From contig CAIKXD010000276.1 in assembly GCA_903831265.1 (NCBI GenBank), positions 21,998-85,997 on the forward strand: 64,000 nt of DNA, given 5' to 3'. Positions 2,907-26,611 of this stretch are shown here, piece after piece; within the stretch, counting starts at the first letter, position 1; each line of letters opens with the position of its first letter. The notes beneath the pieces were generated by a model. It was not told where the DNA came from, searched no databases, and saw nothing but the letters and a program-made list of their open reading frames with translations. The DNA is from an uncultured Bacteroidota bacterium. GTDB lineage: Bacteria; Bacteroidota; Bacteroidia; UBA4408. The position numbers were made by a program, and so were the translations under genes.

Positions 2907-3134
2907 CTATAATTGATGCTTTGAATGCTGGTTTAGCGTTTTCATAAAATGATACTTGAAACAAACAGAGCTAGATTTGGAGTAAAAGATTGATTCTTCA
3001 TTTAAAACAAATAATTTTAATTGATGAGGTGATTGATAAAATTGAAGATCAATTACCTCTACATGTTTTTCCTTTTCTTTTTTAGGAATTGAGTTTTGCA
3101 ATAAATTTTGTGTTAGGGTAACATTCAGTTTCAT
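2907..3134 (-). CDS. Small hypothetical protein upstream of SulP
   Basis: 75-aa ORF co-oriented 30 bp upstream of SulP; no recognised motif. Confidence 0.3.
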   Translation of the reverse strand: MKLNVTLTQNLLQNSIPKKEKEKHVEVIDLQFYQSPHQLKLFVLNEESIFYSKSSSVCFKYHFMKTLNQHSKHQL

Positions 3135-3421
3135 AATTTCAATAATTGCGCTCTAAAAAAAGCCAACATAAAAAAGCAGTCATAAATGTTGATTTTCTGA
3201 TGATATCTATTTTCAAAACTTTTTATCAATGTTGCATTTTTTTGACAAAGTAATTATTTTTTTCTAATAAATAATAATTGGTTTAACAAGTTTGCAGAAA
3301 AAAACGGATTGATTATTGTCACATAAACTGAATTAATAAAACACCCCGAAAAAAAATTGAAAAGCTACATCGACATTAACATCTTCTAAAACAATTGAAA
3401 TAATAAAAATAATTAGAATTG

Positions 3422-3451
3422 TTGTAAAATGAATCTCAATTTCTAAGTTTG
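3422..3451 (+). promoter_or_regulatory. Bacteroidota housekeeping sigma promoter for the GH20 gene
   Basis: TTG (3422-3424), 19-nt spacer, TAAGTTTG (3444-3451), matching the TTTG-N19-21-TAnnTTTG consensus. Confidence 0.55.
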
Positions 3452-3494
3452 TAAATCATCTTTTGCCTAATCAAATCTTGCATTTTAATTTTTC

Positions 3495-5777
3495 ATGAAA
3501 ACAATACAATTTACTATCCTCTTTTGCATATTTATGTTTATTCATAAAGTTAATTGCAAAGCACAAGTAAACATTATCCCCTACCCTGCTAGTGTTGATA
3601 TAATGCATGGCGCATTTAAACTAGATAAAAGCACAAGCATTGTGTTGATTGATGATATTTTAAATATTAATCAACTTGAAGTTGAACAATTTAATTTGTG
3701 GATATTACAACATTATGGATTCAAACTAAATCAAACAAATAACTTAAAAGATAATCAAAACATTATTCAAATTCGTTCAGAAAAAACAGAAACCGAAAAA
3801 TATGAACTCAACATACAAGGCAATAAAATTGCTATAAAAGCAAGTGGTGAAGGGCTTAAAAATGCTTTTGAAAGTTTAAAGCAATTGATGCATGCTAATA
3901 AAAAAGAGAATGTATTTTCAATTCCTGCCTGCTTTATTATTGATAGTGCAGGTTTTCAATGGCGTGGCATGCATTTAGATGTGAGCCGTCATTTCTATGA
4001 TAAAGCATTTGTAAAAAAATATATTGATTATATAAGTATGTATAAAATGAATGTATTCCATTGGCATTTAACCGATGATCAAGGTTGGCGTATTGAAATT
4101 AAAAAGCATCCAAAACTCACTGAAATTGGCGCTTGGCGTAAGGGAAGTATGATTGGACATTATAACCAACATCAGTTCGACACCCTGCGTTATGGTGGTT
4201 TTTATACGCAAGATGATATCAAAGAAATTGTTGCTTACGCGAAACTAAAACATGTAACAATAGTGCCTGAAATTGAAATGCCTGGTCATGCTATGGCAGC
4301 ATTGTCTGCTTATCCACAACTTGCTTGCACATCAGGTCCTTTTGAAGTAGAAAAGCAATGGGGCGTTTTTGATGATGTATTTTGTCCGAAACCCGAAACT
4401 TTTCAATTTTTAGAAGATGTTTTAACTGAGGTGATGGCACTTTTTCCTGGCGAATATATTCATGTAGGTGGCGATGAATGCCCAAAGGAGCGTTGGAAAA
4501 ATTGCAGCAATTGCCAAAATCTTATAAAAAAAGAAGCACTAAAAGATGAGCATGAATTGCAATCCTATTTTATTCAACGCATTGAAAAGTTTTTAAATAA
4601 AAACAATAAAAAATTAATTGGGTGGGATGAAATATTAGAAGGTGGATTAGCACAAAATGCTGCAGTAATGAGTTGGCGGGGAACCGAAGGTGGCATTGCA
4701 GCTGCAAAACAAAATCATTTTGTGGTGATGACACCAGGCACTCATTGCTATTTCGATCATTATCAGGGGCATCCAACTATGGAACCTTTAGCTATTGGTG
4801 GTTTTACTCCCTTAGAAAAAGTATACAATTTTAATCCTATTCCTAGCGAATTAAATGCATTAGAAAGTAAATATATTTTAGGCGCCCAAGCCAATGTTTG
4901 GACAGAATATATTAATACATCTAAAGAAGTTGAGTATTTTGCAATTCCAAGAATGGCCGCCTTAGCAGAAGTTTTATGGACACCTATTGAAAATAAAAAT
5001 CTAACCCGTTTTTTAAATAACATTCAGTCGCATTTTAGTTACCTTGATTTGTATCAAACAAATTATGCACCATCCATTTACAATATAAATTATGAAATAA
5101 AAAAGGATAGTTTATCCAATCAATTTAATTTAAAACTTAGCAATGTGCTTTTTGATAACAATGCTCAAATGCCAGGTGATTCAATTGTTTTATTAAAGGA
5201 CAATAATAAGATTGAATTCTACAAATCTCCAATTGTATTGAATAAGTCATTTCAATTAAACGCACAATATCAAAGAAACAATAAATTGCTTGGCAAAGCC
5301 TGCCCTATTGTATTCAGTTTTAATAAAGCCACTGGTAAAAACATTAGCTTTAAAGAAGCACCAAGTAAGTTTTACAACAAAGGCAATTTAACCGATGGGC
5401 AAAAAGCTCATTTTCCGCGCATCAATAATGAATGGTTGGCTTGGAGTGGGCAAAATATGGAAGCTTCATTAAATTTGAATGATGCATCTTTTATTGAAAG
5501 TATTGATCTTGGTTTTCTAAAGAACGAGCAAGATTGGATTTACCTTCCGAGCCAAGTTGAAATTTTTATTTCGCTTGACAATATTCATTTTGTTAAAGTA
5601 GATACACAACCCAGCATAAGTGAAATTAATGGGAAATATAATTATCATTATGCGGTAAATAAATTAAAAGCACAATACATCAATATCACTGCTACTTGTG
5701 CTCCTAATATTGCGACTGGCAAGCCGGGGGAAGGCGAAAGTGCATGGCTTTTTGTGGATGAAATTGAAATTAAATAA
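3495..5777 (+). CDS. Beta-N-acetylhexosaminidase (GH20) with C-terminal discoidin/F5-8-like domain
   Basis: WRGMHLDVSRHF, FHWHLTDDQGWRIE, PEIEMPGH, catalytic HVGGDE, GAQANVWTEY; N-terminal signal peptide. Confidence 0.95.
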   Translation: MKTIQFTILFCIFMFIHKVNCKAQVNIIPYPASVDIMHGAFKLDKSTSIVLIDDILNINQLEVEQFNLWILQHYGFKLNQTNNLKDNQNIIQIRSEKTETEKYELNIQGNKIAIKASGEGLKNAFESLKQLMHANKKENVFSIPACFIIDSAGFQWRGMHLDVSRHFYDKAFVKKYIDYISMYKMNVFHWHLTDDQGWRIEIKKHPKLTEIGAWRKGSMIGHYNQHQFDTLRYGGFYTQDDIKEIVAYAKLKHVTIVPEIEMPGHAMAALSAYPQLACTSGPFEVEKQWGVFDDVFCPKPETFQFLEDVLTEVMALFPGEYIHVGGDECPKERWKNCSNCQNLIKKEALKDEHELQSYFIQRIEKFLNKNNKKLIGWDEILEGGLAQNAAVMSWRGTEGGIAAAKQNHFVVMTPGTHCYFDHYQGHPTMEPLAIGGFTPLEKVYNFNPIPSELNALESKYILGAQANVWTEYINTSKEVEYFAIPRMAALAEVLWTPIENKNLTRFLNNIQSHFSYLDLYQTNYAPSIYNINYEIKKDSLSNQFNLKLSNVLFDNNAQMPGDSIVLLKDNNKIEFYKSPIVLNKSFQLNAQYQRNNKLLGKACPIVFSFNKATGKNISFKEAPSKFYNKGNLTDGQKAHFPRINNEWLAWSGQNMEASLNLNDASFIESIDLGFLKNEQDWIYLPSQVEIFISLDNIHFVKVDTQPSISEINGKYNYHYAVNKLKAQYINITATCAPNIATGKPGEGESAWLFVDEIEIK

Positions 5778-5810: not shown

Positions 5811-6357
5811 TTTAATTTTACTCCTATGGATAAGTAAGAGGGCACCATTATAACTTGGGAAAAGCTTGCGCTGAAACACCATGACGTTTTTATGGATTTA
5901 ACCCTGTAGGATATAAGTTTATTGCTTGTGGCTAATTGCTACAAAAAAACATACAACAATAATAGCGCTTGGTTGTGGTCCTAAAAATATCACAAAGCAA
6001 CTATTAAAGAATAAAAATTCAGATTCCCAATGTTGCTGTAGGTCTGATGCTTGGGTATTATGCCAATTGCATTTATTTTTTAGGCCAACTGAAAAATAAA
6101 TATGCAATGGTTAATGCTGATACTAACTGAAATTACACCAATGTGATTTATAAATTATACCAAAAGTTTAAAATCTTATATTGGCAAATGCCGATCGGAA
6201 AAAAGTTTGGGACAAATGCCGTGAAACAAATTTAGGCCATTACTTATTTCACATCGGTATTAGTAAAATAAGGCCATGCTGCAGTTGGACTAAATTGAAA
6301 GTGTAATCGGTATTATTTGTAAATTTCAATCTTAATGATAGGCTAAGCTCATCAACA

Positions 6358-6393
6358 AAAAATCCCACATAACAATTGATATGTGGGATTTTT
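6358..6393 (-). terminator. Rho-independent terminator, potentially bidirectional
   Basis: AAAAATCCCACATA-acaattga-TATGTGGGATTTTT, 16 bp past the stop of 6410..10204. Confidence 0.85.
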
Positions 6394-12582: not shown

Positions 12583-15500
12583 ATGACTAAAACTACTAAA
12601 CTACTATTTTTATTTTTATTACTTACTCAATTTAAGGAAGTAAGCGCGCAGGCAGGTGATACCATTACTTTGCAAACATTTACCTTTGGATCGCCACAAG
12701 ATGCGTGGTTTGTTTTTCCATCTGATACAGTAGGCGTTGAAAAGATTTTAATGAAATACACACTTAAGTGTAATCCAGCTCAATCGCCAGCCTGTGGAGA
12801 GTGGGATTATTTAACCTACACTTATTTATACGATCATACCGGTTTAACCGACTCTGCTGTGCAAACGCAGAATAACTTTACTGTGAACGGACAAGCCTTA
12901 CCAAATTTTGCCTACACAAATCAGCCAGCATATAGTTACAGTTCAAATTGGCAATACGGTATAAACTATAGTGATACCACCAGTTTTAATACAGCCACTA
13001 TTGGTACACTTAATCTTCAAAATCAAACTGCAATACAAAGCGCAAACGCTGCTTCTAGAAGTCAGCATCTTTGGACAGCTGCAGAGCTAAGTGCAGCAGG
13101 TTTAACTGCTGGTGAAATTACAGGAATGCAGCTTCAAGTGCTTTCGGCAGGTGGTATTCTTCGCCATTTTACCTTAAAATTTGCATCTACAACTAATTCC
13201 GTTTTAACTACAAATAATATTCAAAACACAGGATTTACAACGGTTTACAATGCAAATACACAACTTGCTAATGGCACAAATTCAGTTGCCTTTACTACGC
13301 CATTTATTTGGGATGGCACTTCAAATATTTTAATTGATATTACATTTGATAATCTTTTTGATGGTGCAAATCAAGTATTAGCTTCGAGTAATACAAGCAG
13401 TATTCAAAGTATTTATAGTGCTGATAAAGACAGATACATGGCACCAAATGCCAATGGATTTGTGAATGTGCCACTCAATAATAGTTTAGCAGCTATCGAT
13501 TCATTAATTACTGTTAGCTTTTGGGCTTATGGCAATCCGGCATCACAACCAAGTAATGGCAGCTGTTTTGAAGCAACGGATTCAGTAGGAAATAGAATTT
13601 TGAATAGTCACACTCCATGGTCGGATAGCAATGTTTATTGGGATGCAGGATTTTCGGGAACTGGTTACGACAGAATAAATAAATTAGCCACTAGTGCCGA
13701 AATTGAAGGCAACTGGAATCATTGGGCATTTATAAAAAATGCCGCTACAGGATCTATGAAAATATATTTGAATGGCACTTTATGGCATACGGGCACCGGC
13801 AAAACTAAACCTTTGAATAATATTCGTAATTTTAAGTTAGGTCGTGGAGTAAGCAATGCCACCGATTCTTATTCAGGTAAGATGGATGATTTTGCAGTAT
13901 TCAATAAAGAACTTGATGCTACCGAAATACAAAGCATCATGTATCAAACTATAGATATGGCCAACCCTTTATATAACAATTTAAGTTTGTATTATCATTT
14001 TAATGAAGGCAATGGCGCTGCCACTGATTTTGCACCGGGCAATCATAATGCAGCATTTTTTCAGAACACCAATAATCCTTTAAAAGATGCTCAGGAATTA
14101 ACAATCAACTTTATGGGTGATACCTTAAGACCAAACATCACTTTTGAGCAAGGTGTGTTTACATCTCAAATTGACTCCACGCTAATAATGGATTCAGTTT
14201 TAGTAGCACCTGTGCAGTTATTGACCTATGCCAATAATGGTTCGCCAACCATTGCAACAGATACAGTTTGGACATGGGCAATGCATTATTATAACTATAT
14301 TTTTGATGCCAATGGAAATGCTATTGACTCTACATTAGCACCAAGCGCAGGTTCATTAACCAATGGTACGTTTAACTATTACTCTTATTTTCCTCAAGTA
14401 ATAAGATATGAATTAGCGCGTTATATCACCCCTTATGGTAACAATTTAAGTTTAGGAAATGGATGGACTTGGACCTTTGATGTAACTGACTACAGAAAAC
14501 TTTTGGCCGACAGTGTGCATTTAACCGCAGGTAACTGGCAAGAATTGCTTGATATGCGATTTGAAATCATTAAAGGTACACCTTCGAGAGATATTATAAG
14601 CATTCAAAATATTTATTCTGGTGGTTATAATTATGGAAATGCTAACGATCCTATTGATAATTACCTGCTTCCTGTAACAGTTAACATTCCAAGCAATGCG
14701 GTAACAGCGCGTTGGAAAAGCAGAATCACCGGACACGGCATGGATACCCCTGAAAACTGTGCAGAATTTTGCCCTAAGAATCATTACTTTAAAGTAAACG
14801 GCACACAACAATTTTCTAAACTTGTATGGAGAGATAATTGTGATGTAAATCCACTTTATCCGCAAGGAGGTACTTGGGTTTACGACCGTTCAAACTGGTG
14901 TCCGGGCGCTGAAGTGTGGACTTATGATTTTGAACTTACCCCATTTATTACACCAGGTGCAGCAGCAGTTTTAGATCATGATGTGCAACCTTACTCAAGT
15001 ACTGGCGGTTGGCATTATTACCAAATAGAAGATCAAATTGTAACATACGGAGCGCCTAACTTTAGCAATGATGCTTCTTTAGAAACCATCTTATCGCCAA
15101 GCAACGATCAAATGTACCAGCGTTTTAATACCATTTGTACCCATCCAAAAATTAAAATTAAAAATAATGGTTCAAATAATTTAACCTCATTAACCATCAC
15201 CTATGGTATGAATGGCGCAACACCTTCGGTATTTAATTGGACAGGCAACTTAAAGTTTGAAGAAAGTGCTGAAGTTACCTTAGGCGAAATGAATTGGGCA
15301 ACTGGAGCAAGCTATTTTACAGTTACCTTAAGCAATCCAAATGGTATAGCTGATCAATACGCCCCAAACAATAGCAGAATAAGTAAATACAATTACCCCG
15401 CTTTAATGCCTGCTAACTTTATTGTAACAGTAAAAACTAATACACGACCTTGGGAAACAGAATATGCACTTAAAGATGCAGCAGGTAACATTGTTTTTGA

Positions 15501-16011
15501 AAGAAATACATTAGATGCAAATACCATTTACAGAGATACTGTAGCATTGGCGCAAGGCTGTTATGAATTTAGATTAATTGATAGTGGAGAAGATGGCTTA
15601 TCATTTTGGGCCAATACAGCACAAGGTAGCGGTTATGCAAGGTTTAATAGCATGACAGGTGGAATAATTAAAACATTTGGCGCTGATTTTGGTGGTGAAA
15701 TTTATCAGCAATTTACGGTAGGCCTAAATAACAGCACGCAAGAATATACTTTTGAAAAAAATCAAGTATTAAGAGCCTATCCAAATCCTACCAACAACTT
15801 ACTTTTTGTAACGCTTGATTTACCGAAGCGTTCGAATGGTGCATTATCAATTATAGATATCATGGGCAATGTCGTATATCAATCAAACATCAATAATAAA
15901 ATTGCTGATAGTTTTGAGATTGACATGAGCCAATATAGTGCAGGTGTTTATCAAGTGATATTGAATACCGATGCCGGTGTTAGTTCACAAAAAGTGATTT
16001 TGGAGAAATAG
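12583..16011 (+). CDS. Secreted peptide-N-glycosidase F-related protein with inserted LamG-like domain and T9SS CTD
   Basis: CGEWDY ... ELARYITPYG, WTFDVTDY, ITGHG..CAEFC, RSNWCPG; LamG WNHWAF..MKIYLNG..GKMDDFAVFNKEL; C-terminal YPNPT...GVYQV. Confidence 0.85.
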   Translation: MTKTTKLLFLFLLLTQFKEVSAQAGDTITLQTFTFGSPQDAWFVFPSDTVGVEKILMKYTLKCNPAQSPACGEWDYLTYTYLYDHTGLTDSAVQTQNNFTVNGQALPNFAYTNQPAYSYSSNWQYGINYSDTTSFNTATIGTLNLQNQTAIQSANAASRSQHLWTAAELSAAGLTAGEITGMQLQVLSAGGILRHFTLKFASTTNSVLTTNNIQNTGFTTVYNANTQLANGTNSVAFTTPFIWDGTSNILIDITFDNLFDGANQVLASSNTSSIQSIYSADKDRYMAPNANGFVNVPLNNSLAAIDSLITVSFWAYGNPASQPSNGSCFEATDSVGNRILNSHTPWSDSNVYWDAGFSGTGYDRINKLATSAEIEGNWNHWAFIKNAATGSMKIYLNGTLWHTGTGKTKPLNNIRNFKLGRGVSNATDSYSGKMDDFAVFNKELDATEIQSIMYQTIDMANPLYNNLSLYYHFNEGNGAATDFAPGNHNAAFFQNTNNPLKDAQELTINFMGDTLRPNITFEQGVFTSQIDSTLIMDSVLVAPVQLLTYANNGSPTIATDTVWTWAMHYYNYIFDANGNAIDSTLAPSAGSLTNGTFNYYSYFPQVIRYELARYITPYGNNLSLGNGWTWTFDVTDYRKLLADSVHLTAGNWQELLDMRFEIIKGTPSRDIISIQNIYSGGYNYGNANDPIDNYLLPVTVNIPSNAVTARWKSRITGHGMDTPENCAEFCPKNHYFKVNGTQQFSKLVWRDNCDVNPLYPQGGTWVYDRSNWCPGAEVWTYDFELTPFITPGAAAVLDHDVQPYSSTGGWHYYQIEDQIVTYGAPNFSNDASLETILSPSNDQMYQRFNTICTHPKIKIKNNGSNNLTSLTITYGMNGATPSVFNWTGNLKFEESAEVTLGEMNWATGASYFTVTLSNPNGIADQYAPNNSRISKYNYPALMPANFIVTVKTNTRPWETEYALKDAAGNIVFERNTLDANTIYRDTVALAQGCYEFRLIDSGEDGLSFWANTAQGSGYARFNSMTGGIIKTFGADFGGEIYQQFTVGLNNSTQEYTFEKNQVLRAYPNPTNNLLFVTLDLPKRSNGALSIIDIMGNVVYQSNINNKIADSFEIDMSQYSAGVYQVILNTDAGVSSQKVILEK

Positions 16012-16030: not shown

Positions 16031-16074
16031 AATCCCATAAACTTTTAAGAAGCTAAAAGTTTATGGGATTTTTT
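16031..16074. terminator. Rho-independent terminator, probably ancestrally shared by the convergent PNGase gene and tsaD
   Basis: AATCCCATAAACTTTTA-agaagc-TAAAAGTTTATGGGATT followed by TTTT. Confidence 0.9.
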
Positions 16075-16106
16075 GTTGGTAAACATCAAACTCCATTCTG
16101 GCATTG
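16067..16106. repeat. Left direct repeat, a copy of the tsaD 3' end
   Basis: GATTTTTTGTTGGTAAACATCAAACTCCATTCTGGCATTG matches 19124-19163 at 39/40; the mismatch turns the tsaD TAA stop into CAA. Confidence 0.92.
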
Positions 16107-16109
16107 CTT

Positions 16110-16132
16110 CGTAAAAGCGAAGCTCTGCTTCG
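16110..16132 (+). repeat. REP element, copy 1 of 3 left copies (others at 16246-16268 and 16364-16386)
   Basis: CGTAAAAG-CGAAGC-tct-GCTTCG: GTAA tetramer at the foot of a 6-bp hairpin. Confidence 0.8.
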
Positions 16133-16149
16133 ATTTCCTTTAATTTAGC

Positions 16150-16169
16150 ATCCCGATATCTATCGGGAT
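16150..16169. repeat. Short palindrome present only in unit 1
   Basis: ATCCCGATA-tc-TATCGGGAT; the central 18 bp stand where units 2 and 3 have AGTT. Confidence 0.8.
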
Positions 16170-16412
16170 CACTTGCGTGGATATAGTTTGGATGTTAATT
16201 TTGAATACCAAATTTTAAAAGATGGCTGAAAGCTATAAAATACTTCGTAAAAGCGAAGCTCTGCTTCGATTTCCTTTAATTTAGCAAGTTTCACTTGCGT
16301 GGATATAGTTTGGATGTTAATTTCGAATACCAAATTTTAAAAGATGTCTGAAAGCTATAAATTCGTAAAAGCGAAGCTCTGCTTCGATTTCTTTAAATTT
16401 AGCAAGTTTCAC

Positions 16413-16443
16413 TTGCGTGGATATGTTTTGAATGCTAATTTTG
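16413..16443 (+). promoter_or_regulatory. RAYT promoter (TTG-N20-TAATTTTG), replicated in the upstream units
   Basis: TTG 16413-16415, TAATTTTG 16436-16443; unit 1 has TAATTTTG at 16196-16203, unit 2 has the variant TAATTTCG. Confidence 0.6.
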
Positions 16444-16458
16444 AATACCAAATTTTAA

Positions 16459-16989
16459 ATGATGTCTGAAAGCTATAAAAGACATGAAGATGGCTTATAC
16501 TTTGTTACTTTTGCTGTTGTAGGCTGGTTAGATGTTTTTACCAGAAGGACTTACCAAGATATTTTTATTGATAGTATTAAGTTCTGTCAAGAAAAAAAAG
16601 GATTAGACATTTATTGCTTTTGTTTGATGCCAAATCATGTTCACTTTATTGCTGATTCTTACGATGGAAGTTTGAGTAATATTTTGCGTTCGTTTAAATC
16701 TCACACAGCCAAAGCGCTGATGGCTGCCATTAAAGAAAACCCACAAAAAAGTAGAAAAGAGTTATTTTTACATCAATTTAATTATTTCGGTAAAAAAAGT
16801 AAAAACAATGAGCATCAATTTTGGAAACATGATAATCATCCATTTTATTTATACAGTAATGAAATGATAGCACAAAAGGTAAATTATATTCATAACAATC
16901 CTGTAGTAGCAGGTTTTGTTAATGAAGCACATGAATGGAGATTGAGCAGCGTAAATCCAAATTTCGAAGTTAAACTTGCTGCACTTTGA
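16459..16989 (+). CDS. REP-associated tyrosine transposase (RAYT/TnpA-REP; IS200/IS605 Y1 HUH superfamily)
   Basis: YFVT, HUH motif MPNHVH, FKSHTAK, FW, catalytic YIHNNPV and W..SS; flanked by inverted REPs. Confidence 0.92.
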   Translation: MMSESYKRHEDGLYFVTFAVVGWLDVFTRRTYQDIFIDSIKFCQEKKGLDIYCFCLMPNHVHFIADSYDGSLSNILRSFKSHTAKALMAAIKENPQKSRKELFLHQFNYFGKKSKNNEHQFWKHDNHPFYLYSNEMIAQKVNYIHNNPVVAGFVNEAHEWRLSSVNPNFEVKLAAL

Positions 16990-17020
16990 AGCCGAGCGAA
17001 GCTCTAACAATTAAAAAACA

Positions 17021-17043
17021 CGAAGCACAGCTTCGCTTTTACG
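17021..17043 (-). repeat. Inverted REP on the right flank of the RAYT
   Basis: CGAAGCACAGCTTCGCTTTTACG is the reverse complement of the left REP with 1 mismatch, in the loop. Confidence 0.88.
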
Positions 17044-17177
17044 CGGGAGGAACGTTACTTACTGGAAATCTTGGTTAAAAGAATAAATCATTACTTTTGA
17101 AGCAACAAAAAACAAAACGAATGAAATAGAATAAAATACAGCCTTTATGGCTGACATATAATATTGCGTTTAGCAAC

Positions 17178-17312
17178 TCCCGAAACTGAAAACTAGGAAT
17201 CTTCGAACAAACGGGGTAAGTGTATAAACGCTCACGCAAGGCGTGGGCTTTATCATTTCCCGTTTGTAGGTATCCTAGTACCTCAGTTTCGGATTGGTAA
17301 TTGTCCCACGCT
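17178..17312 (+). ncRNA. Candidate structured leader/ncRNA upstream of the LamG cargo gene
   Basis: Nested helices: CCGAAACTGA(17180-89)/TCAGTTTCGG(17283-92); ACTAGGA(17192-98)/TCCTAGT(17273-79); ACAAACGGG(17207-15)/CCCGTTTGT(17259-67); GCTCACGC(17230-37)/GCGTGGGC(17241-48); downstream CCCACGC(17305-11) can pair alternatively with GCGTGGG. Confidence 0.65.
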
Positions 17313-17369
17313 GATTTTTTATACTAACTCTACTGAGGGACAGAGTGGAACAAAACAAACTTAAAAAAA

Positions 17370-18743
17370 ATGAAAAAGAAAAGTTTACTTCTAACCGCAG
17401 TAGCAATGCTAGGATTGACTGCTGCAACATTGGCGCAAAATGTGCCAAATTATGTGCCTACAAATGGACTTATTGGTTGGTGGCCGTTTAGTGGCAACGC
17501 CAATGATGAGAGTGGGAATGGGAATAATGGGACGGTTAATGGGGCTATTTTAACTACTGATAGATTCGGTTATATAGGGAAGGCATACAGTTTTGACGGT
17601 TCAGGAGATTCAATAACTACTATACTTCCTGCAATAGGTAATTTTACTTTTAATGGATGGATAAATAGCTCTGCGTTACCAAGCGATTATCCTATTATTT
17701 ACAACTTTAATACAGGCCTGCAAAATAATAGATTACTATTACTGGGAGCAGCATATTCTGCAATAGATCAAGGTAAAATTTTTATAGGCGATGACAATGG
17801 CGTTTCAAATGATTATCAAACTTCCTTCACAGTAAATAATAATAATTGGAGAATGTTATCTGTTGTCTACGATTATAACTCAGCTACTCTTAAATTATTT
17901 GTTGACAATAACTTAATTGTTACAAAAAGCATAATAGGAAATTCAAATTTTGGAGGTAAGATTAAATTTGGAAATGGCTTTTCACAATTTACATCAGGTA
18001 ATCCATTTTATGATAGTAAAGGATATGTTGGTTCAATTGATGATATCGGCATCTGGAATCGTGCCTTAACCCAACAAGAAATAACAGATTTATACAACGC
18101 AGTCAACTGTGCAAACAATGCTACTATTACTCCACAAACCAACACTTTAACAACAGGAAACACCGCAACATTTACAGCTTCAACATCAGACCCCAACCCA
18201 AGCTATTTATGGCAATGCGATTTTGGACAAGGATTTCAAACATTGAATAATTTCGGTAATTATTCAGGAACAAATACAGCCAATTTGAATATTGCAAATA
18301 TTCAGCTTCCGAATCACACCCAACCCATTAGAGTAATTACAACTTCGGTGAACTGTATTGACACATCAAATGTTGCCACAATTTCGATTGCAGACACCTG
18401 TATAAACACAGTAACAGATACAACATTGATTACAGTAACAGACACTTTGCTGATCAATACTAATTTGACAGGTGTAAATCCGCCAAACAATGTAAACACC
18501 ATCAAGATATTTCCTAATCCCGCAAATGATCATATTACCATTAACTATGGTAATTTCTCGGTAATGAACGGCTATCTATTGAAAATTGAAAACGCTATAG
18601 GCCAACAAGTATTTCAAACAAATATTACGCAACAAAGTGATTATTTGAACTTAACAACTTGGGGCGGAAATGGACTTTATTTTGTTCACATTATTAACCC
18701 ACAAGGAAACACAATTGACATTAGAAAAATAGTGCTTCAATAG
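17370..18743 (+). CDS. Secreted LamG-like jellyroll protein with Ig-like segment and T9SS CTD (islet cargo)
   Basis: Signal peptide; VPTNGLIGWWPFSGNANDESGNGNNGTVNGA..TTDRFG, G.IDDIGIWNRALTQQEI, C-terminal IFPNPA...GLYFVHI. Confidence 0.88.
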   Translation: MKKKSLLLTAVAMLGLTAATLAQNVPNYVPTNGLIGWWPFSGNANDESGNGNNGTVNGAILTTDRFGYIGKAYSFDGSGDSITTILPAIGNFTFNGWINSSALPSDYPIIYNFNTGLQNNRLLLLGAAYSAIDQGKIFIGDDNGVSNDYQTSFTVNNNNWRMLSVVYDYNSATLKLFVDNNLIVTKSIIGNSNFGGKIKFGNGFSQFTSGNPFYDSKGYVGSIDDIGIWNRALTQQEITDLYNAVNCANNATITPQTNTLTTGNTATFTASTSDPNPSYLWQCDFGQGFQTLNNFGNYSGTNTANLNIANIQLPNHTQPIRVITTSVNCIDTSNVATISIADTCINTVTDTTLITVTDTLLINTNLTGVNPPNNVNTIKIFPNPANDHITINYGNFSVMNGYLLKIENAIGQQVFQTNITQQSDYLNLTTWGGNGLYFVHIINPQGNTIDIRKIVLQ

Positions 18744-18754
18744 CCTACCTCATA

Positions 18755-18810
18755 ACAGCCAACGCTCCCACCAGCAACATCGCTGGTGGTTAAGCGCTGT
18801 GTTTTTTTTT
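18755..18810 (+). terminator. Probable terminator of the cargo gene
   Basis: CCACCAGC-aacatc-GCTGGTGG core, extendable by CGCT/AGCG, followed by T9 (18802-18810). Confidence 0.65.
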
Positions 18811-18885
18811 AAAATTTAATTAGCAAATCATTAAAGAATTGAGAAAGTATGAGCTGCAAAATTTTTCAGCGCAAGTAAATATTTC

Positions 18886-18997
18886 AGCAGGTTGAGATTG
18901 AGCAGCGCGAATCCAAATTTCGAAATTAAACTTACTGCAATTTGAAGCCGAGCGAAGCGCTAACTTAAAAAACACGAAGCAAAGCTTCGCGTTTATG
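18886..18997 (+). pseudogene. Decayed second copy of the RAYT 3' end plus right REP
   Basis: 18894-18997 aligns to 16938-17043 with ~9 substitutions and one 2-bp gap by eye; the preceding AGCAGGTT matches the RAYT a further ~22 bp upstream (deletion). Confidence 0.88.
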
Positions 18998-19020
18998 GGG
19001 GTATTAAAAATTCATCGGAA

Positions 19021-19045
19021 GATTGCGGGTCGAGCCCGCAATGAC
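19021..19045. repeat. Second, unrelated REP-like palindrome
   Basis: GATTGCGGG-tcgag-CCCGCAATGAC; GC-rich hairpin in an AT-rich background, no U-tract. Confidence 0.65.
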
Positions 19046-19123
19046 GCTATTAGTGGCTAGCTTTACATAAAAAGTCTTTTGCTTAACCTAATAAGATTGG
19101 CTTCGTGCTTAAGCGGTTTACGA

Positions 19124-19163
19124 GATTTTTTATTGGTAAACATCAAACTCCATTCTGGCATTG
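19124..19163. repeat. Right direct repeat (overlaps the tsaD 3' end and stop)
   Basis: GATTTTTTATTGGTAAACATCAAACTCCATTCTGGCATTG. Confidence 0.92.
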
Positions 19164-20158
19164 GCCACCTGGGTTTGATTTCCAAATTTATTCATTTTAA
19201 ATTTTAAATAGCCCACCATGGCAATCATGGCTGCATTATCGGTACAATATTCGAAGGGTGGAATGTGGGCTTGTATGTTATTTTTTTGAGCCAATGTTTC
19301 GAATGCTTTTCGAAGTGCACTGTTTGCAGCAACACCACCAGCCAAGCCAATGTGTTTAACTTGGTGCTCCTGGGCTGCCTTTTCGAATTTATCAATCAAA
19401 ATTTTTACAATTCTAAATTGTATTGATGCACAAATATCAGCTAGATTGTTTGTTATAAATGCTGAGTCCTTCTGCTGTTCATTATTTATAAAATTTAAAA
19501 AGTTAGTTTTCAAACCGCTAAAACTAAAATTATAGCCTTCCATTTTTGGTGTAGGAAAATTATATTTTAAAGGATTTCCTATTGCTGCATATTTATCAAT
19601 TAAAGGTCCACCAGGATAGGGCAAGCCTATAATTTTAGCCGATTTATCGAAAGCTTCGCCCGCAGCATCATCAAGGGTTTCGCCAATGATGGTCATCTCA
19701 AAATAATCTTTCAATAAAACAATTTGTGTGTGCCCGCCAGATACCGTTAAACATAAAAAAGGAAATGTTGGAGGATTTACTAAATCAATAAAATGCGAAA
19801 GGATATGCCCTTGCATGTGATGTACATTTATTAATGGTTTATTGATTGCTAAAGCTAATCCCTTTGCAAATGAAGCGCCAACCAACAGCGAACCCAATAA
19901 GCCTGGACCTTGGGTATAAGCAATAGCATCTATTTCATTTAAACTTACTTTGGCCAAATTTAGTGCTTCTTGCATAACAGGAACAATATTTTGTTGATGC
20001 GCTCTAGAAGCCAATTCGGGAACTACACCACCATATTTTACATGAATTTGCTGTGTAGCCACAATATTGGCAAGGATTTTGCCATTGCGCAAAATAGCTA
20101 TAGAAGTATCATCACAAGATGATTCAATGGCTAAAATAAGTATTGATTGAGCATTCAT
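19130..20158 (-). CDS. tsaD: tRNA N6-threonylcarbamoyladenosine transferase subunit TsaD
   Basis: ILAIESSCDDT, YGGVVPELASRAH, GPGLLGSL, HHMQGH, VSGGHT, DDAAGEAFDK, YCTDNAAMIA. Confidence 0.97.
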   Translation of the reverse strand: MNAQSILILAIESSCDDTSIAILRNGKILANIVATQQIHVKYGGVVPELASRAHQQNIVPVMQEALNLAKVSLNEIDAIAYTQGPGLLGSLLVGASFAKGLALAINKPLINVHHMQGHILSHFIDLVNPPTFPFLCLTVSGGHTQIVLLKDYFEMTIIGETLDDAAGEAFDKSAKIIGLPYPGGPLIDKYAAIGNPLKYNFPTPKMEGYNFSFSGLKTNFLNFINNEQQKDSAFITNNLADICASIQFRIVKILIDKFEKAAQEHQVKHIGLAGGVAANSALRKAFETLAQKNNIQAHIPPFEYCTDNAAMIAMVGYLKFKMNKFGNQTQVANARMEFDVYQ

Positions 20159-26093: not shown

Positions 26094-26611
26094 AGTAAAT
26101 TTATTATTTAAAATTCGATCACTTTTTTACTTATTTTAATCTTTAAAAGGAGCAACTCATTTGGTCTTGTTCTTTTATTTTACTTCAAAACTTTGTTGTT
26201 TAACTTATAAAGCTTTCGCACAAATTTAAAATATTCATTTTGCAATTTTATAAATACATTCTTAATTTCTAATTTATATTAAAAATAGCCCCAACTTGCG
26301 GTCATTTTTACAAATTTACTTGCTGCAACACACACTATATTTATTTCTACTGTCAATTTAGCATCGTTTTAATACCTGCATAAATTAAAGCAACTTTTAA
26401 CCCAAATTCCTCCTCAGCAAGCTAATCAACTTTATTTTACCTCAATCTTAAGTACTTACTCCAATTTTGAATTTCAGAACAGCGCGCTTATTCTTTAATT
26501 GAAAAGAGTTAGTGCGTATTTCATATTATTGCTAAATTTTGTTCACCAAAAATTCCTACTGCGTAACATGTTTAAAATTTCCCTCTGCTTTATTGCCGCA
26601 ATTCATTTTTA

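What the first reader, a model, noticed from the sequence alone, without database searches (positions are those of the whole stretch)
16067..19163. Integrase-less RAYT/REP islet that duplicates the tsaD 3' end and carries cargo: candidate RAYT-driven mobilisation system
Seen: terminator | 40-bp tsaD-end copy | REP-module x3 | RAYT | inverted REP | structured RNA | LamG-T9SS gene | decayed RAYT end + REP | second palindrome | tsaD end. No tyrosine/serine integrase or DDE transposase is recognisable. Established: RAYTs are Y1 HUH nucleases that cut and rejoin ssDNA near REPs, and are usually regarded as domesticated, largely immobile genes; IS200/IS605 elements do not make target duplications. 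Inference: the left boundary of the insert falls within 1-2 bp of the first REP unit (…GCATTG|CTTCGTAAAAG). This fits RAYT joining a REP 5' end to a site inside tsaD to form a circle with cargo plus the tsaD tail, which then integrated through that 40-bp homology while keeping the essential tsaD intact.
Basis: partly seen in the sequence, partly recalled or inferred. Interest (0 to 1): 0.85.

Follow-up and report, generated by a model that had tools for sequence, protein, structure and literature searches.

The report
Repeat islet duplicating the tsaD tail
A 3-kb patch of repeats with a REP-associated transposase gene sits between two copies of the end of the essential gene tsaD; two distantly related lake bacteria share it almost letter for letter, so it moved between species, most likely by ordinary recombination rather than by the transposase.

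Summary
A 48-nt direct repeat (45/48) at 16059-16106 and 19116-19163 flanks 3 kb. Each copy holds a terminator arm, a T-run, the tsaD stop and its last 31 coding nt. Between the copies lie three REP modules, an intact RAYT, an inverted REP, a structured leader RNA, a LamG/T9SS gene, a second REP unit and a 110-nt repeat. There is no integrase.

New evidence:
- One other species (G001) has the same junctions. Shared islet parts are 94-98% identical against a 74-78% genome background.
- The near-identical tract runs about 200-300 nt past the repeat into tsaD. A crossover confined to the 40-nt homology cannot give that.
- The LamG "cargo" is missing from G001.
- None of the other 17 REP/RAYT regions in this genome has a unique flanking duplication.
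- One strain seems to carry a truncated left copy.

Best reading (about 0.45): a repeat islet formed by one illegitimate join at a REP. Selection for an intact tsaD tail kept it, and tsaD-anchored recombination spread it between species. A RAYT-made junction stays possible (about 0.2).

Separately, the "structured RNA" is a covarying 5' leader. It occurs in 36 of 151 genomes of the class and is not in Rfam.

The parts
12583..16011 (+). Left neighbour: 1142-aa secreted protein with PNGase F C-terminal, LamG and T9SS sorting domains
   Evidence: Pfam N-glycanase_C 74 bits, Laminin_G_3, Por_Secre_tail. About 80% identical to G001 over 2090 nt.
16031..16070 (.). Terminator hairpin between the convergent genes (17-bp stem, 6-nt loop, T-run)
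   Evidence: Inverted repeat I4, 100% complementary. Found by the terminator scan. Stems are identical in G001 and the loop differs.
16059..16106 (.). Left copy of the 48-nt repeat: hairpin 3' arm, T-run, and a non-coding copy of the tsaD stop and last 31 coding nt
   Evidence: Family D3, 45/48 identical to 19116-19163. The core occurs only twice in the genome. One Logan contig of run X3 breaks off at 16084 and continues with other letters into a REP, which suggests a shortened copy in a strain.
16108..16479 (+). Three tandem REP-A modules. Each holds the REP core GTAAAAGCGAAGCnnnGCTTCG, a spacer and the first RAYT codons. The third runs into the RAYT gene.
   Evidence: Family D1, spacing 122 and 118 nt. 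Core hits at 16111, 16247 and 16365. A similar two-unit array without a RAYT lies on contig C81.
16459..16989 (+). RAYT (REP-associated tyrosine transposase), 176 aa, intact
   Evidence: NF047646 102.2 bits against cut-off 80. Pfam Y1_Tnp. HUH (NHVHF) and YIHNNP align with the TnpA-REP chain 4er8 in a weak hit, E 0.6. 98% identical in G001, 86% in G006, 66% or less elsewhere.
16938..17047 (+). REP-B unit: RAYT 3' end plus an inverted REP core (17021-17043). With the third REP-A it bounds a 678-bp RAYT unit, 16365-17042.
   Evidence: Inverted repeats I1-I3. The stretch 16365-17042 is 97.8% identical to G001.
17179..17345 (+). Structured 5' leader RNA of the LamG gene: a long four-segment hairpin with an invariant tip, then a second stem. 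It ends about 25 nt before the ATG.
   Evidence: 20 of 43 pairs compensatory in 8 sequences. On 38 distinct sequences, 92.4% of cells paired against 35-47% when slid, and 31 of 44 pairs changed on both sides. No Rfam match.
17370..18743 (+). LamG / T9SS-sorted secreted protein, 457 aa. One of a paralog set with conserved ends and a variable middle.
   Evidence: Pfam Laminin_G_3 and Por_Secre_tail. Paralogs at 77-79% on C279, C271 and C176 match only 17047-17601 and 18035-18744. No close copy in G001.
18894..19001 (+). Second REP-B unit, in direct orientation to 16938-17047. The two bracket the leader and the LamG gene.
   Evidence: Families D2 and D5, 87-89%. REP core at 18975-18996 on the minus strand with 2 mismatches. 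In G001 two such units lie side by side with nothing between them.
19003..19112 (.). Pal2: an unrelated repeat of about 110 nt with the palindrome ATTGCGGGTCGAGCCCGCAAT. It ends 3 nt before the right repeat copy.
   Evidence: 81% copy over 110 nt on G001 contig C24. 30-nt copies at 94-97% on G000 contigs C242 and C146.
19116..19163 (.). Right copy of the 48-nt repeat. It is the working end of tsaD plus 14 nt downstream.
   Evidence: Family D3. tsaD ORF end at 19130.
19130..20158 (-). tsaD (tRNA t6A threonylcarbamoyltransferase), intact
   Evidence: Pfam TsaD 333 bits. The C-terminal ARM(E/D)FD motif is also present in G003 and G006.
19130..19435 (-). The tsaD 3' tract shared almost unchanged with G001. 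7 differences fall in 19130-19330 and dense differences start at 19435.
   Evidence: 96-98% identity in 19130-19361 against 73-81% (one 91% block) upstream. An independent contig of run X3 shows the same differences as G001 (table 3, compared).

Best explanation
The islet is a recombination-built patch of repeats in the variable spacer between two convergent genes. It holds a REPtron (a RAYT with its flanking REPs), extra REP units, an unrelated 110-nt repeat, and in this species a LamG paralog with its leader.

Inferred: the tsaD-tail duplication arose once. DNA whose right part carried its own tsaD end recombined with the chromosome through tsaD homology. Its left end, at a REP, was joined illegitimately 31 nt inside the resident tsaD. 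The resident tail was left behind as a non-coding copy next to the terminator. Only such tail-restoring events survive, because the duplicated stretch encodes the conserved ARMEFD end of an essential protein.

Shown: the finished structure later passed between two species that are about 23% divergent. One exchange point lay inside tsaD (about 19330-19435) and the other near the PNGase stop.

Shown for structure, inferred for cause: afterwards the REP arrays were remodelled and the LamG cassette was gained between two REP-B copies, or lost from G001. RAYT probably maintains and amplifies the REP units, as in published REPtron models, but it is not the integrase of the islet.
For: 1. G000 versus G001 background is 74-78% over about 14 kb of matched segments of a 20-kb query, the same as G000 versus G005. 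Yet the RAYT unit is 97.8% identical, Pal2 94%, the left repeat copy differs at 1 of 48 positions and the hairpin stems are identical, and the last 230 nt or so of tsaD are 96-98%.
2. That tract runs past the repeat's inner end (19163) to about 19330-19435. So the exchange point lay in tsaD proper.
3. G005 and G007 have PNGase next to tsaD with unrelated 460- and 250-nt spacers, their own terminators, no duplication and no RAYT. G003 and G006 have other neighbours and spacers of 150 and 78 nt. The spacer is therefore variable and no integrase island is seen there.
4. Everything between the repeat copies is a repeat family or a paralog.
5. Only 1 of 18 REP/RAYT regions of G000 has a two-copy flanking duplication.
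6. Junction sequences differ between lineages: G000 ...GGCATTG|CTTCG, G001 ...GGCATTGGC|GAGG, and an X3 contig that breaks at 16084 with CCCGAG before the REP.
7. Strain-level mosaicism occurs at the same place in L059.
Against: - The left join falls right at a REP 5' flank in two or three lineages. A RAYT cut predicts this. My reading needs REPs to be hot spots for breaks, which is established for enterobacterial REPs but recalled here and not tested.
- Homologous exchange between sequences only 77% identical is expected to be very rare.
- The donor state (islet next to tsaD without the left copy) was not found in any of the 27 family genomes.
- The left end of the shared tract has little homology to work with: the PNGase end is about 80-84% identical and the spacer has diverged.
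- The interior of G001's islet is unknown, because two contigs end there.
Confidence: 0.45

Rival explanations
1. RAYT-made junction. RAYT nicked the REP-A 5' flank and stayed bound to the 5' end. That end was then joined to a 3'-OH inside the tsaD tail. This gave a circle or a read-through single strand carrying REPtron plus tsaD end, which then entered through tsaD homology.
For: - The left repeat copy abuts the REP 5' flank in G000 and G001.
- The tandem REP-A units also join a constant REP 5' flank (..TTCGTAAAAG) to a point in the RAYT 5' codons. One join reads ..AC|TTCG.
- Passages read in PMC3333891 and PMC8266576 say that TnpA-REP cuts single strands at C|T (one enzyme also at CA), holds the 5' phosphate, and lets another 3'-OH be joined. 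They propose single-strand circles and rolling amplification of REP clusters.
- The RAYT is intact and its unit is 97.8% conserved across species.
Against: - G001's junction (GGCATTGGC|GAGG) has no CT. G000's reads GC|TT, with a base that is not tsaD's.
- It happened once among 18 REP/RAYT regions. Relatives' RAYT loci show only repeats that look REP-type.
- The cargo is not shared with G001.
- The spread between species needs a crossover in tsaD anyway.
Confidence: 0.2
2. Remnant or non-autonomous passenger of an integrase-driven island that uses the tsaD 3' end as its attachment site. The 48-nt repeats would be attL and attR.
For: Flanking direct repeats that rebuild the 3' end of a conserved gene are the usual mark of tyrosine-integrase islands (general knowledge, recalled). 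G000 has 9 Phage_integrase matches over cut-off that could in principle act in trans.
Against: - There is no recombinase gene and no room for a remnant between the repeats.
- No further copy of the repeat core exists in G000 or G001, so no sibling element with the same attachment site is present.
- None of 27 family genomes has the core other than these two. No island lies at tsaD in G003, G005, G006 or G007.
- The shared tract goes beyond the repeat.
- One full-text search for tsaD, attB and integrase together listed nothing relevant, judged from the listing only.
Confidence: 0.12
3. A small tandem duplication of the 48 nt arose first, and the repeat elements later inserted between the two copies.
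For: Short tandem duplications next to hairpins are common (recalled). The site clearly accumulates repeat elements.
Against: Insertions would have to land exactly at the joint of the two copies, since the left copy ends at the REP flank and the right copy starts 3 nt after Pal2. No genome shows the bare tandem duplication.
Confidence: 0.08
4. Assembly or binning artefact: chimeric contigs create the repeat or the near-identical tracts.
For: Both genomes are fragmented metagenome assemblies (390 and about 130 contigs). The near-identical parts lie at contig ends in G001.
Against: - The 40-nt identical core is shorter than a read.
- Both junctions recur in G001, and the right one in L059.
- G001's REP arrangement differs from G000's, and its characteristic joins recur in runs X3, X5 and X6.
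- An X3 contig spans 19170-19530 with G001's pattern of differences.
Confidence: 0.03

Closest known systems
REPtron / BIME cluster (E. coli TnpA-REP with flanking REPs; Pseudomonas RAYT-REPIN systems)
   Same: A single-copy Y1 HUH gene flanked by REPs in inverted orientation. The REP has a GTAA tag before a short GC-rich palindrome. Copies are dispersed in the genome, and units lie in tandem and in alternating orientation.
   Different: - The host is a freshwater Bacteroidota.
- REP units are long (about 90-120 nt) and include the first and last RAYT codons.
- There are only 22 core copies in this fragmented assembly.
- The unit is 98% identical between species that are 77% alike. Passages read in PMC5581495 describe RAYTs as mostly vertically inherited, with horizontal transfer rare.
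- The cluster is bracketed by a gene-tail duplication.
IS200/IS605 insertion sequences
   Same: Y1 HUH enzyme and subterminal hairpins. By published mechanism there is no target duplication from the enzyme itself.
   Different: The IS200 model scores 21 bits against a cut-off of 55. No second near-identical copy exists in the genome. The end hairpins are inverted copies of one another.
Integrase-borne genomic islands and integrase-less cis-mobilisable elements at gene 3' ends
   Same: Direct repeats that restore the 3' end of a conserved gene, and an integrase-less interior.
   Different: No helper element with the same core is present, and there are no island genes. The exchange tract exceeds the repeat.
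Homology-facilitated illegitimate recombination (one homologous anchor, one illegitimate end; described in transformable bacteria, recalled and not read here)
   Same: One end of the shared tract lies in a conserved gene and the other in non-homologous spacer. Foreign DNA is gained without a recombinase.
   Different: Uptake route and competence in this organism are unknown. Here the illegitimate end lies inside the anchor gene's own tail, which leaves a duplication.

Membership tests
RAYT (REP-associated tyrosine transposase) | Match to the curated family model above its cut-off | tested here: met
   NF047646 102.2 bits against 80; Pfam Y1_Tnp 33.5 against 23.
RAYT (REP-associated tyrosine transposase) | HUH motif and catalytic tyrosine in a Y-x-x-x-N-P helix | tested here: met
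   NHVHF and YIHNNP align with LPEHMHC and YIYINP of chain 4er8. The sequence hit itself is weak, E 0.6. Which tyrosine is catalytic is recalled.
RAYT (REP-associated tyrosine transposase) | Gene flanked by REPs in inverted orientation that also occur dispersed in the genome | tested here: met
   Inverted repeats I1-I3. 22 core hits on 13 contigs against 1 for the reversed pattern.
RAYT (REP-associated tyrosine transposase) | One copy of each type per genome, with no near-identical duplicates | tested here: met
   The five other paralogs in G000 are 30-48% identical.
RAYT (REP-associated tyrosine transposase) | Single-strand cleavage and strand transfer at REPs | not testable with these tools
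   Needs purified protein and oligonucleotides.
IS200/IS605 insertion sequence | Match to the IS200 transposase model and several identical copies | tested here: not met
   NF033573 21.1 bits against 55. No second copy above 48%.
Integrase-driven island at a gene 3' end | Flanking direct repeats that restore the target gene | tested here: met
   48-nt repeat, 45/48.
Integrase-driven island at a gene 3' end | Recombinase gene within the repeats, or a helper element with the same core elsewhere | tested here: not met
   No such ORF. The integrases lie on other contigs. The core is present only at this locus in G000 and G001.
Any Rfam family (for the leader RNA) | Covariance-model match | tested here: not met
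   Nothing at the motif at E up to 1 in the window, or at E up to 0.5 in 8 further loci.

The most novel reading that the evidence does not exclude
The REPtron is a horizontally mobile unit whose own RAYT made the tsaD-tail|REP junction. RAYT would nick the REP 5' flank, and that end would be joined to a 3'-OH in the tsaD tail. This would create a single-strand module that carries a replacement gene end and enters new hosts through that homology. It would be a recombinase-free, homology-anchored way for a 'domesticated' transposase to move itself, and whatever lies between its REPs, between species.
Probability: 0.17. Interest if true: 0.8.

Novelty: new variant of a known kind. Interest (0 to 1): 0.5.

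Why it matters
RAYTs are held to be domesticated, single-copy and vertically inherited. Passages read in PMC5581495 report only rare hints of transfer. Here a whole REPtron is 98% identical in two species that are about 23% divergent, at the same locus, with a restored essential-gene tail. This is a clear case of recent inter-species movement of a RAYT with its REPs. It is also a natural test bed for whether RAYT or plain recombination does the moving.

It further shows how an insertion inside the end of an essential gene can survive. Apart from that, the leader RNA is a widespread, strongly covarying motif of this class that no Rfam model covers. It lies in front of genes for exported proteins and is a good candidate for a new cis-regulator.

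Tried and rejected
- Rfam on the islet gave only chance-level hits.
It has the same right junction and ends at the REP, so it says nothing about the left side.
- Public runs were all short Logan contigs. Of 13 listed joints, none links about 16106 to about 19164 (an empty site) and none is a clear circle junction. One entry in table 5c only (run X5, 19141 back to 16365 with GAG between) could be a circle or tandem join. It could equally be the left junction of a G001-like strain placed on the near-identical right copy. I could not resolve it because the cap is one call. Absence in contigs proves nothing.
- Searching for a clean empty site found only G005 and G007, whose spacers are unrelated, so the exact pre-insertion state is unknown.
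- The C|T rule fits the junctions neither cleanly for nor cleanly against.
- Flanking-repeat scans of 17 other RAYT loci had only 1.5-kb flanks for most. L064 and L130 are the same locus, and L022-L025 repeat loci already covered. I judged the repeats found to be REP-type by eye, not by copy count.
- A literature search on a Bacteroidetes leader RNA listed nothing specific, judged from the listing only.
- No supplementary files were consulted. Supplementary trees of PMC5581495 might bear on how rare RAYT transfer is.
- I did not fold the RAYT or run complex prediction, because no claim needs them.

Full report
**What is there**

The window is contig C276 of a 4.1-Mb, 390-contig assembly, 99.7% complete. 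Record titles and run labels place it among freshwater Bacteroidota.

A 1142-aa PNGase/LamG/T9SS gene (12583-16011, +) and tsaD (19130-20158, -) converge. Just after the PNGase stop lies a perfect 17-bp terminator hairpin, 16031-16070.

A 48-nt direct repeat, 45/48 identical, lies at 16059-16106 and 19116-19163. Each copy holds the last 9 nt of the hairpin's 3' arm, the T-run, the tsaD stop and the final 31 coding nt. Those encode N-ARMEFDVYQ, a motif also kept in G003 and G006.

Between the copies, in order:
- three tandem REP-A modules of 118-122 nt, each with a REP core, a spacer and the first RAYT codons;
- an intact RAYT, 16459-16989;
- a REP-B unit whose core is the inverted complement of the REP-A core;
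- a 167-nt structured leader;
- a LamG/T9SS gene;
- a second REP-B unit in direct orientation;
- Pal2, a 110-nt repeat of another family, which ends 3 nt before the right copy.

The RAYT call is solid. NCBIfam NF047646 scores 102 bits against a cut-off of 80. The IS200 model fails at 21 against 55. HUH and YxxxNP align with E. coli TnpA-REP. No recombinase gene is present, and the 9 Phage_integrase matches over cut-off lie on other contigs.

**Is it more than chance or artefact?**

The repeat core occurs exactly twice in the genome. Among 27 genomes of the family, only G000 and G001 contain it, two copies each.

G001 shows the same left junction (hairpin, tail copy, REP) on contig C71. It shows the same right junction (Pal2, tail, tsaD) at the end of contig C79. 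Metagenome contig L059, from a strain 98.5% like G000 in tsaD, has the same right junction.

**Comparative evidence**

G000 versus G001 is 74-78% identical over about 14 kb of matched segments of the 20-kb query next to the islet. G000 versus G005 is no different, so G001 is not a close sister. PNGase is 80% identical over 2090 nt.

Against this background:
- the RAYT unit 16365-17042, bounded by inverted REP cores, is 97.8% identical;
- REP modules are 84-94% and Pal2 is 94%;
- the hairpin stems are identical and the left repeat copy differs at one position;
- the last 230 nt or so of tsaD are 96-98% identical, then identity drops to 73-81%, with one 91% block.

Differences between the two species in tsaD are sparse up to 19319, cluster at 19366-19400, and are dense from 19435. 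An independently assembled contig of run X3 covers 19170-19530 and shows the same differences as G001 plus three more (table 3). The mosaic is therefore not a quirk of one bin.

This RAYT lineage is otherwise found only in G006, at 86% amino-acid identity, among 185,579 species genomes scanned with peptide patterns. The next hit is 66%. In G006 it sits in another locus among large REP arrays.

G005 and G007 keep PNGase next to tsaD but have unrelated spacers of 460 and 250 nt and their own terminators. They have one tsaD end and no RAYT there. G003 and G006 have other neighbours 150 and 78 nt from tsaD. No integrase-bearing island at tsaD was seen in any of these.

**What this says about mechanism**

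The islet moved between species recently. The near-identical tract extends well beyond the repeat into tsaD, so the right-hand exchange was homologous recombination inside tsaD. It was not a crossover in the 40-48-nt repeat, whether made by a site-specific enzyme or by RecA. The left-hand end lies near the PNGase stop, where the spacer has diverged, so it was a short-homology or illegitimate join.

The LamG gene and its leader are not part of the shared unit. G001 has no close copy of the gene and no copy of the leader RNA. Where G000 has REP-B, cargo, REP-B, G001 has two REP-B units side by side. The cargo is a member of a paralog set with conserved ends and a variable middle. It probably entered or left by recombination between REP-B copies; that last step is inferred.

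The tail duplication is a one-off. Of 18 REP/RAYT regions in G000, three have flanking direct repeats. Two of those are repeat families with 18 and 104 genome copies. Only the tsaD one is unique sequence. RAYT loci of relatives showed only repeats that look REP-type.

The left junction differs in detail between lineages, and one G000-like contig in run X3 breaks off after 26 nt of the left copy. So the left copy does not look like a conserved functional site.

**How the duplication arose remains inferred**

I favour (0.45) a single event with three steps:
1. Incoming or sister DNA carrying its own tsaD end paired through tsaD.
2. Its far end, at a REP, was joined illegitimately inside the resident tail.
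3. Selection for the conserved tail then explains why the survivor carries a duplication.

The RAYT alternative (0.2) has real points in its favour. The join is at a REP 5' flank. The tandem REP-A units show the same constant 5' flank joined to a point in the RAYT 5' codons. Published biochemistry says TnpA-REP cuts at C|T, holds the 5' end and lets another 3'-OH be joined, and proposes circles and rolling amplification (passages read in PMC3333891 and PMC8266576). But the junctions do not read cleanly as C|T joins, and G001's has no CT.

The other readings:
- An integrase remnant or passenger (0.12) lacks a recombinase, a sibling element and any example in relatives.
- A prior 48-nt tandem duplication (0.08) needs insertions exactly at the joint.
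- Artefact (0.03) is unlikely given three independent sources.

**The structured RNA**

The 5' region of the LamG gene is conserved in paralogs and in other genera. RNAalifold on 8 sequences gives a long four-segment hairpin with an invariant tip, plus a second stem. 20 of 43 pairs are compensatory.

A covariance model finds:
- 3 copies in G000;
- matches in 10 of 27 family genomes;
- matches in 36 of 151 sampled genomes of the class, in 28 of 100 genera.

On 38 distinct sequences aligned to the model, 92.4% of cells pair, against 73% when shuffled and 35-47% when slid. 31 of 44 pairs show changes on both sides. The alignment is fitted to the model, which favours it somewhat. Reverse-strand scores are far lower, 29 against 193 bits.

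No Rfam family matches it.

In 22 of 25 loci examined, an ORF of 80 aa or more starts within 150 nt downstream, often 21-25 nt. About 19 of the 22 begin like signal peptides or lipoproteins, judged by eye with no predictor. Of 10 products scanned in Pfam, two pass a cut-off (Phage tail collar, Peptidase_M43), two are below cut-off (Collagen, PKD_4) and six have no hit.

The invariant GCGUGGG could pair either with CUCACGC (the tip) or with the invariant CCCACGC before a U-run. This suggests an attenuator-like switch. It is inference only, because invariant columns carry no covariation.

**Verdict**

- The integrase-less, mobile character is supported.
- The specific RAYT-circle-with-cargo mechanism is not supported by the new evidence, but it is not excluded.
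- The case is a new variant of a known kind: a REPtron that moved between species and is bracketed by a restored essential-gene tail.
- Interest is 0.5, helped by the leader RNA.

Noticed in passing
window 17179-17345; also G000 C279:6782-6949 and C176:1738-1906; loci L091-L128: A widespread, strongly covarying 5' leader RNA of about 168 nt, not in Rfam 15. It occurs in 36 of 151 sampled genomes of the class at 1-9 copies each, usually 20-25 nt before the ATG of genes for exported proteins of many families. It may be an attenuator-like switch.
   Followed up: partly
G000 C307:14290-15334 (locus L022): Another RAYT paralog, 45% identical, is flanked by 176-nt direct repeats (96.6%). That sequence has about 104 BLAST hits in the genome, so this repeat family is far more abundant than the REPs of the tsaD islet.
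   Followed up: no
G000 C81:5675-5900: Two tandem REP-A modules, each ending in the first RAYT codons (ATGTCAGAAAGC), with no RAYT gene behind them. The REP unit that spreads therefore includes the RAYT 5' end.
   Followed up: no
window 17047-17601 and 18035-18744 versus G000 C279, C271, C176; joints 17521-18036: The LamG/T9SS paralogs share leader, signal-peptide region and C-terminal part at 77-79%, but not the middle. Public contigs replace the middle (about 515 nt) with 526 other letters. The variation looks cassette-like.
   Followed up: no
window 19003-19112; G001 C24:14775-14884; G000 C242 and C146: Pal2 is a repeat of about 110 nt carrying the palindrome ATTGCGGGTCGAGCCCGCAAT. A third palindromic repeat (ACCAATTGCATTTATT...AATAAATnTGCAATGGT) often lies beside REPs, for example at the G001 C71 contig end and on G000 C75, C108 and C188.
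   Followed up: partly
locus L060 (G006 C2:471000-490000), local 3113-4421 and 13924-15876: Two large arrays of alternating REP units (10-17 copies per repeat family) lie either side of a 2710-aa gene, with the 86%-identical RAYT ortholog inside the second array.
   Followed up: partly
window 26394-26580 (query 6194-6382): A stretch of about 170-190 nt has 74-81% copies on many contigs of both G001 and G005. It is another dispersed repeat or a conserved small gene, and I did not look at it.
   Followed up: no
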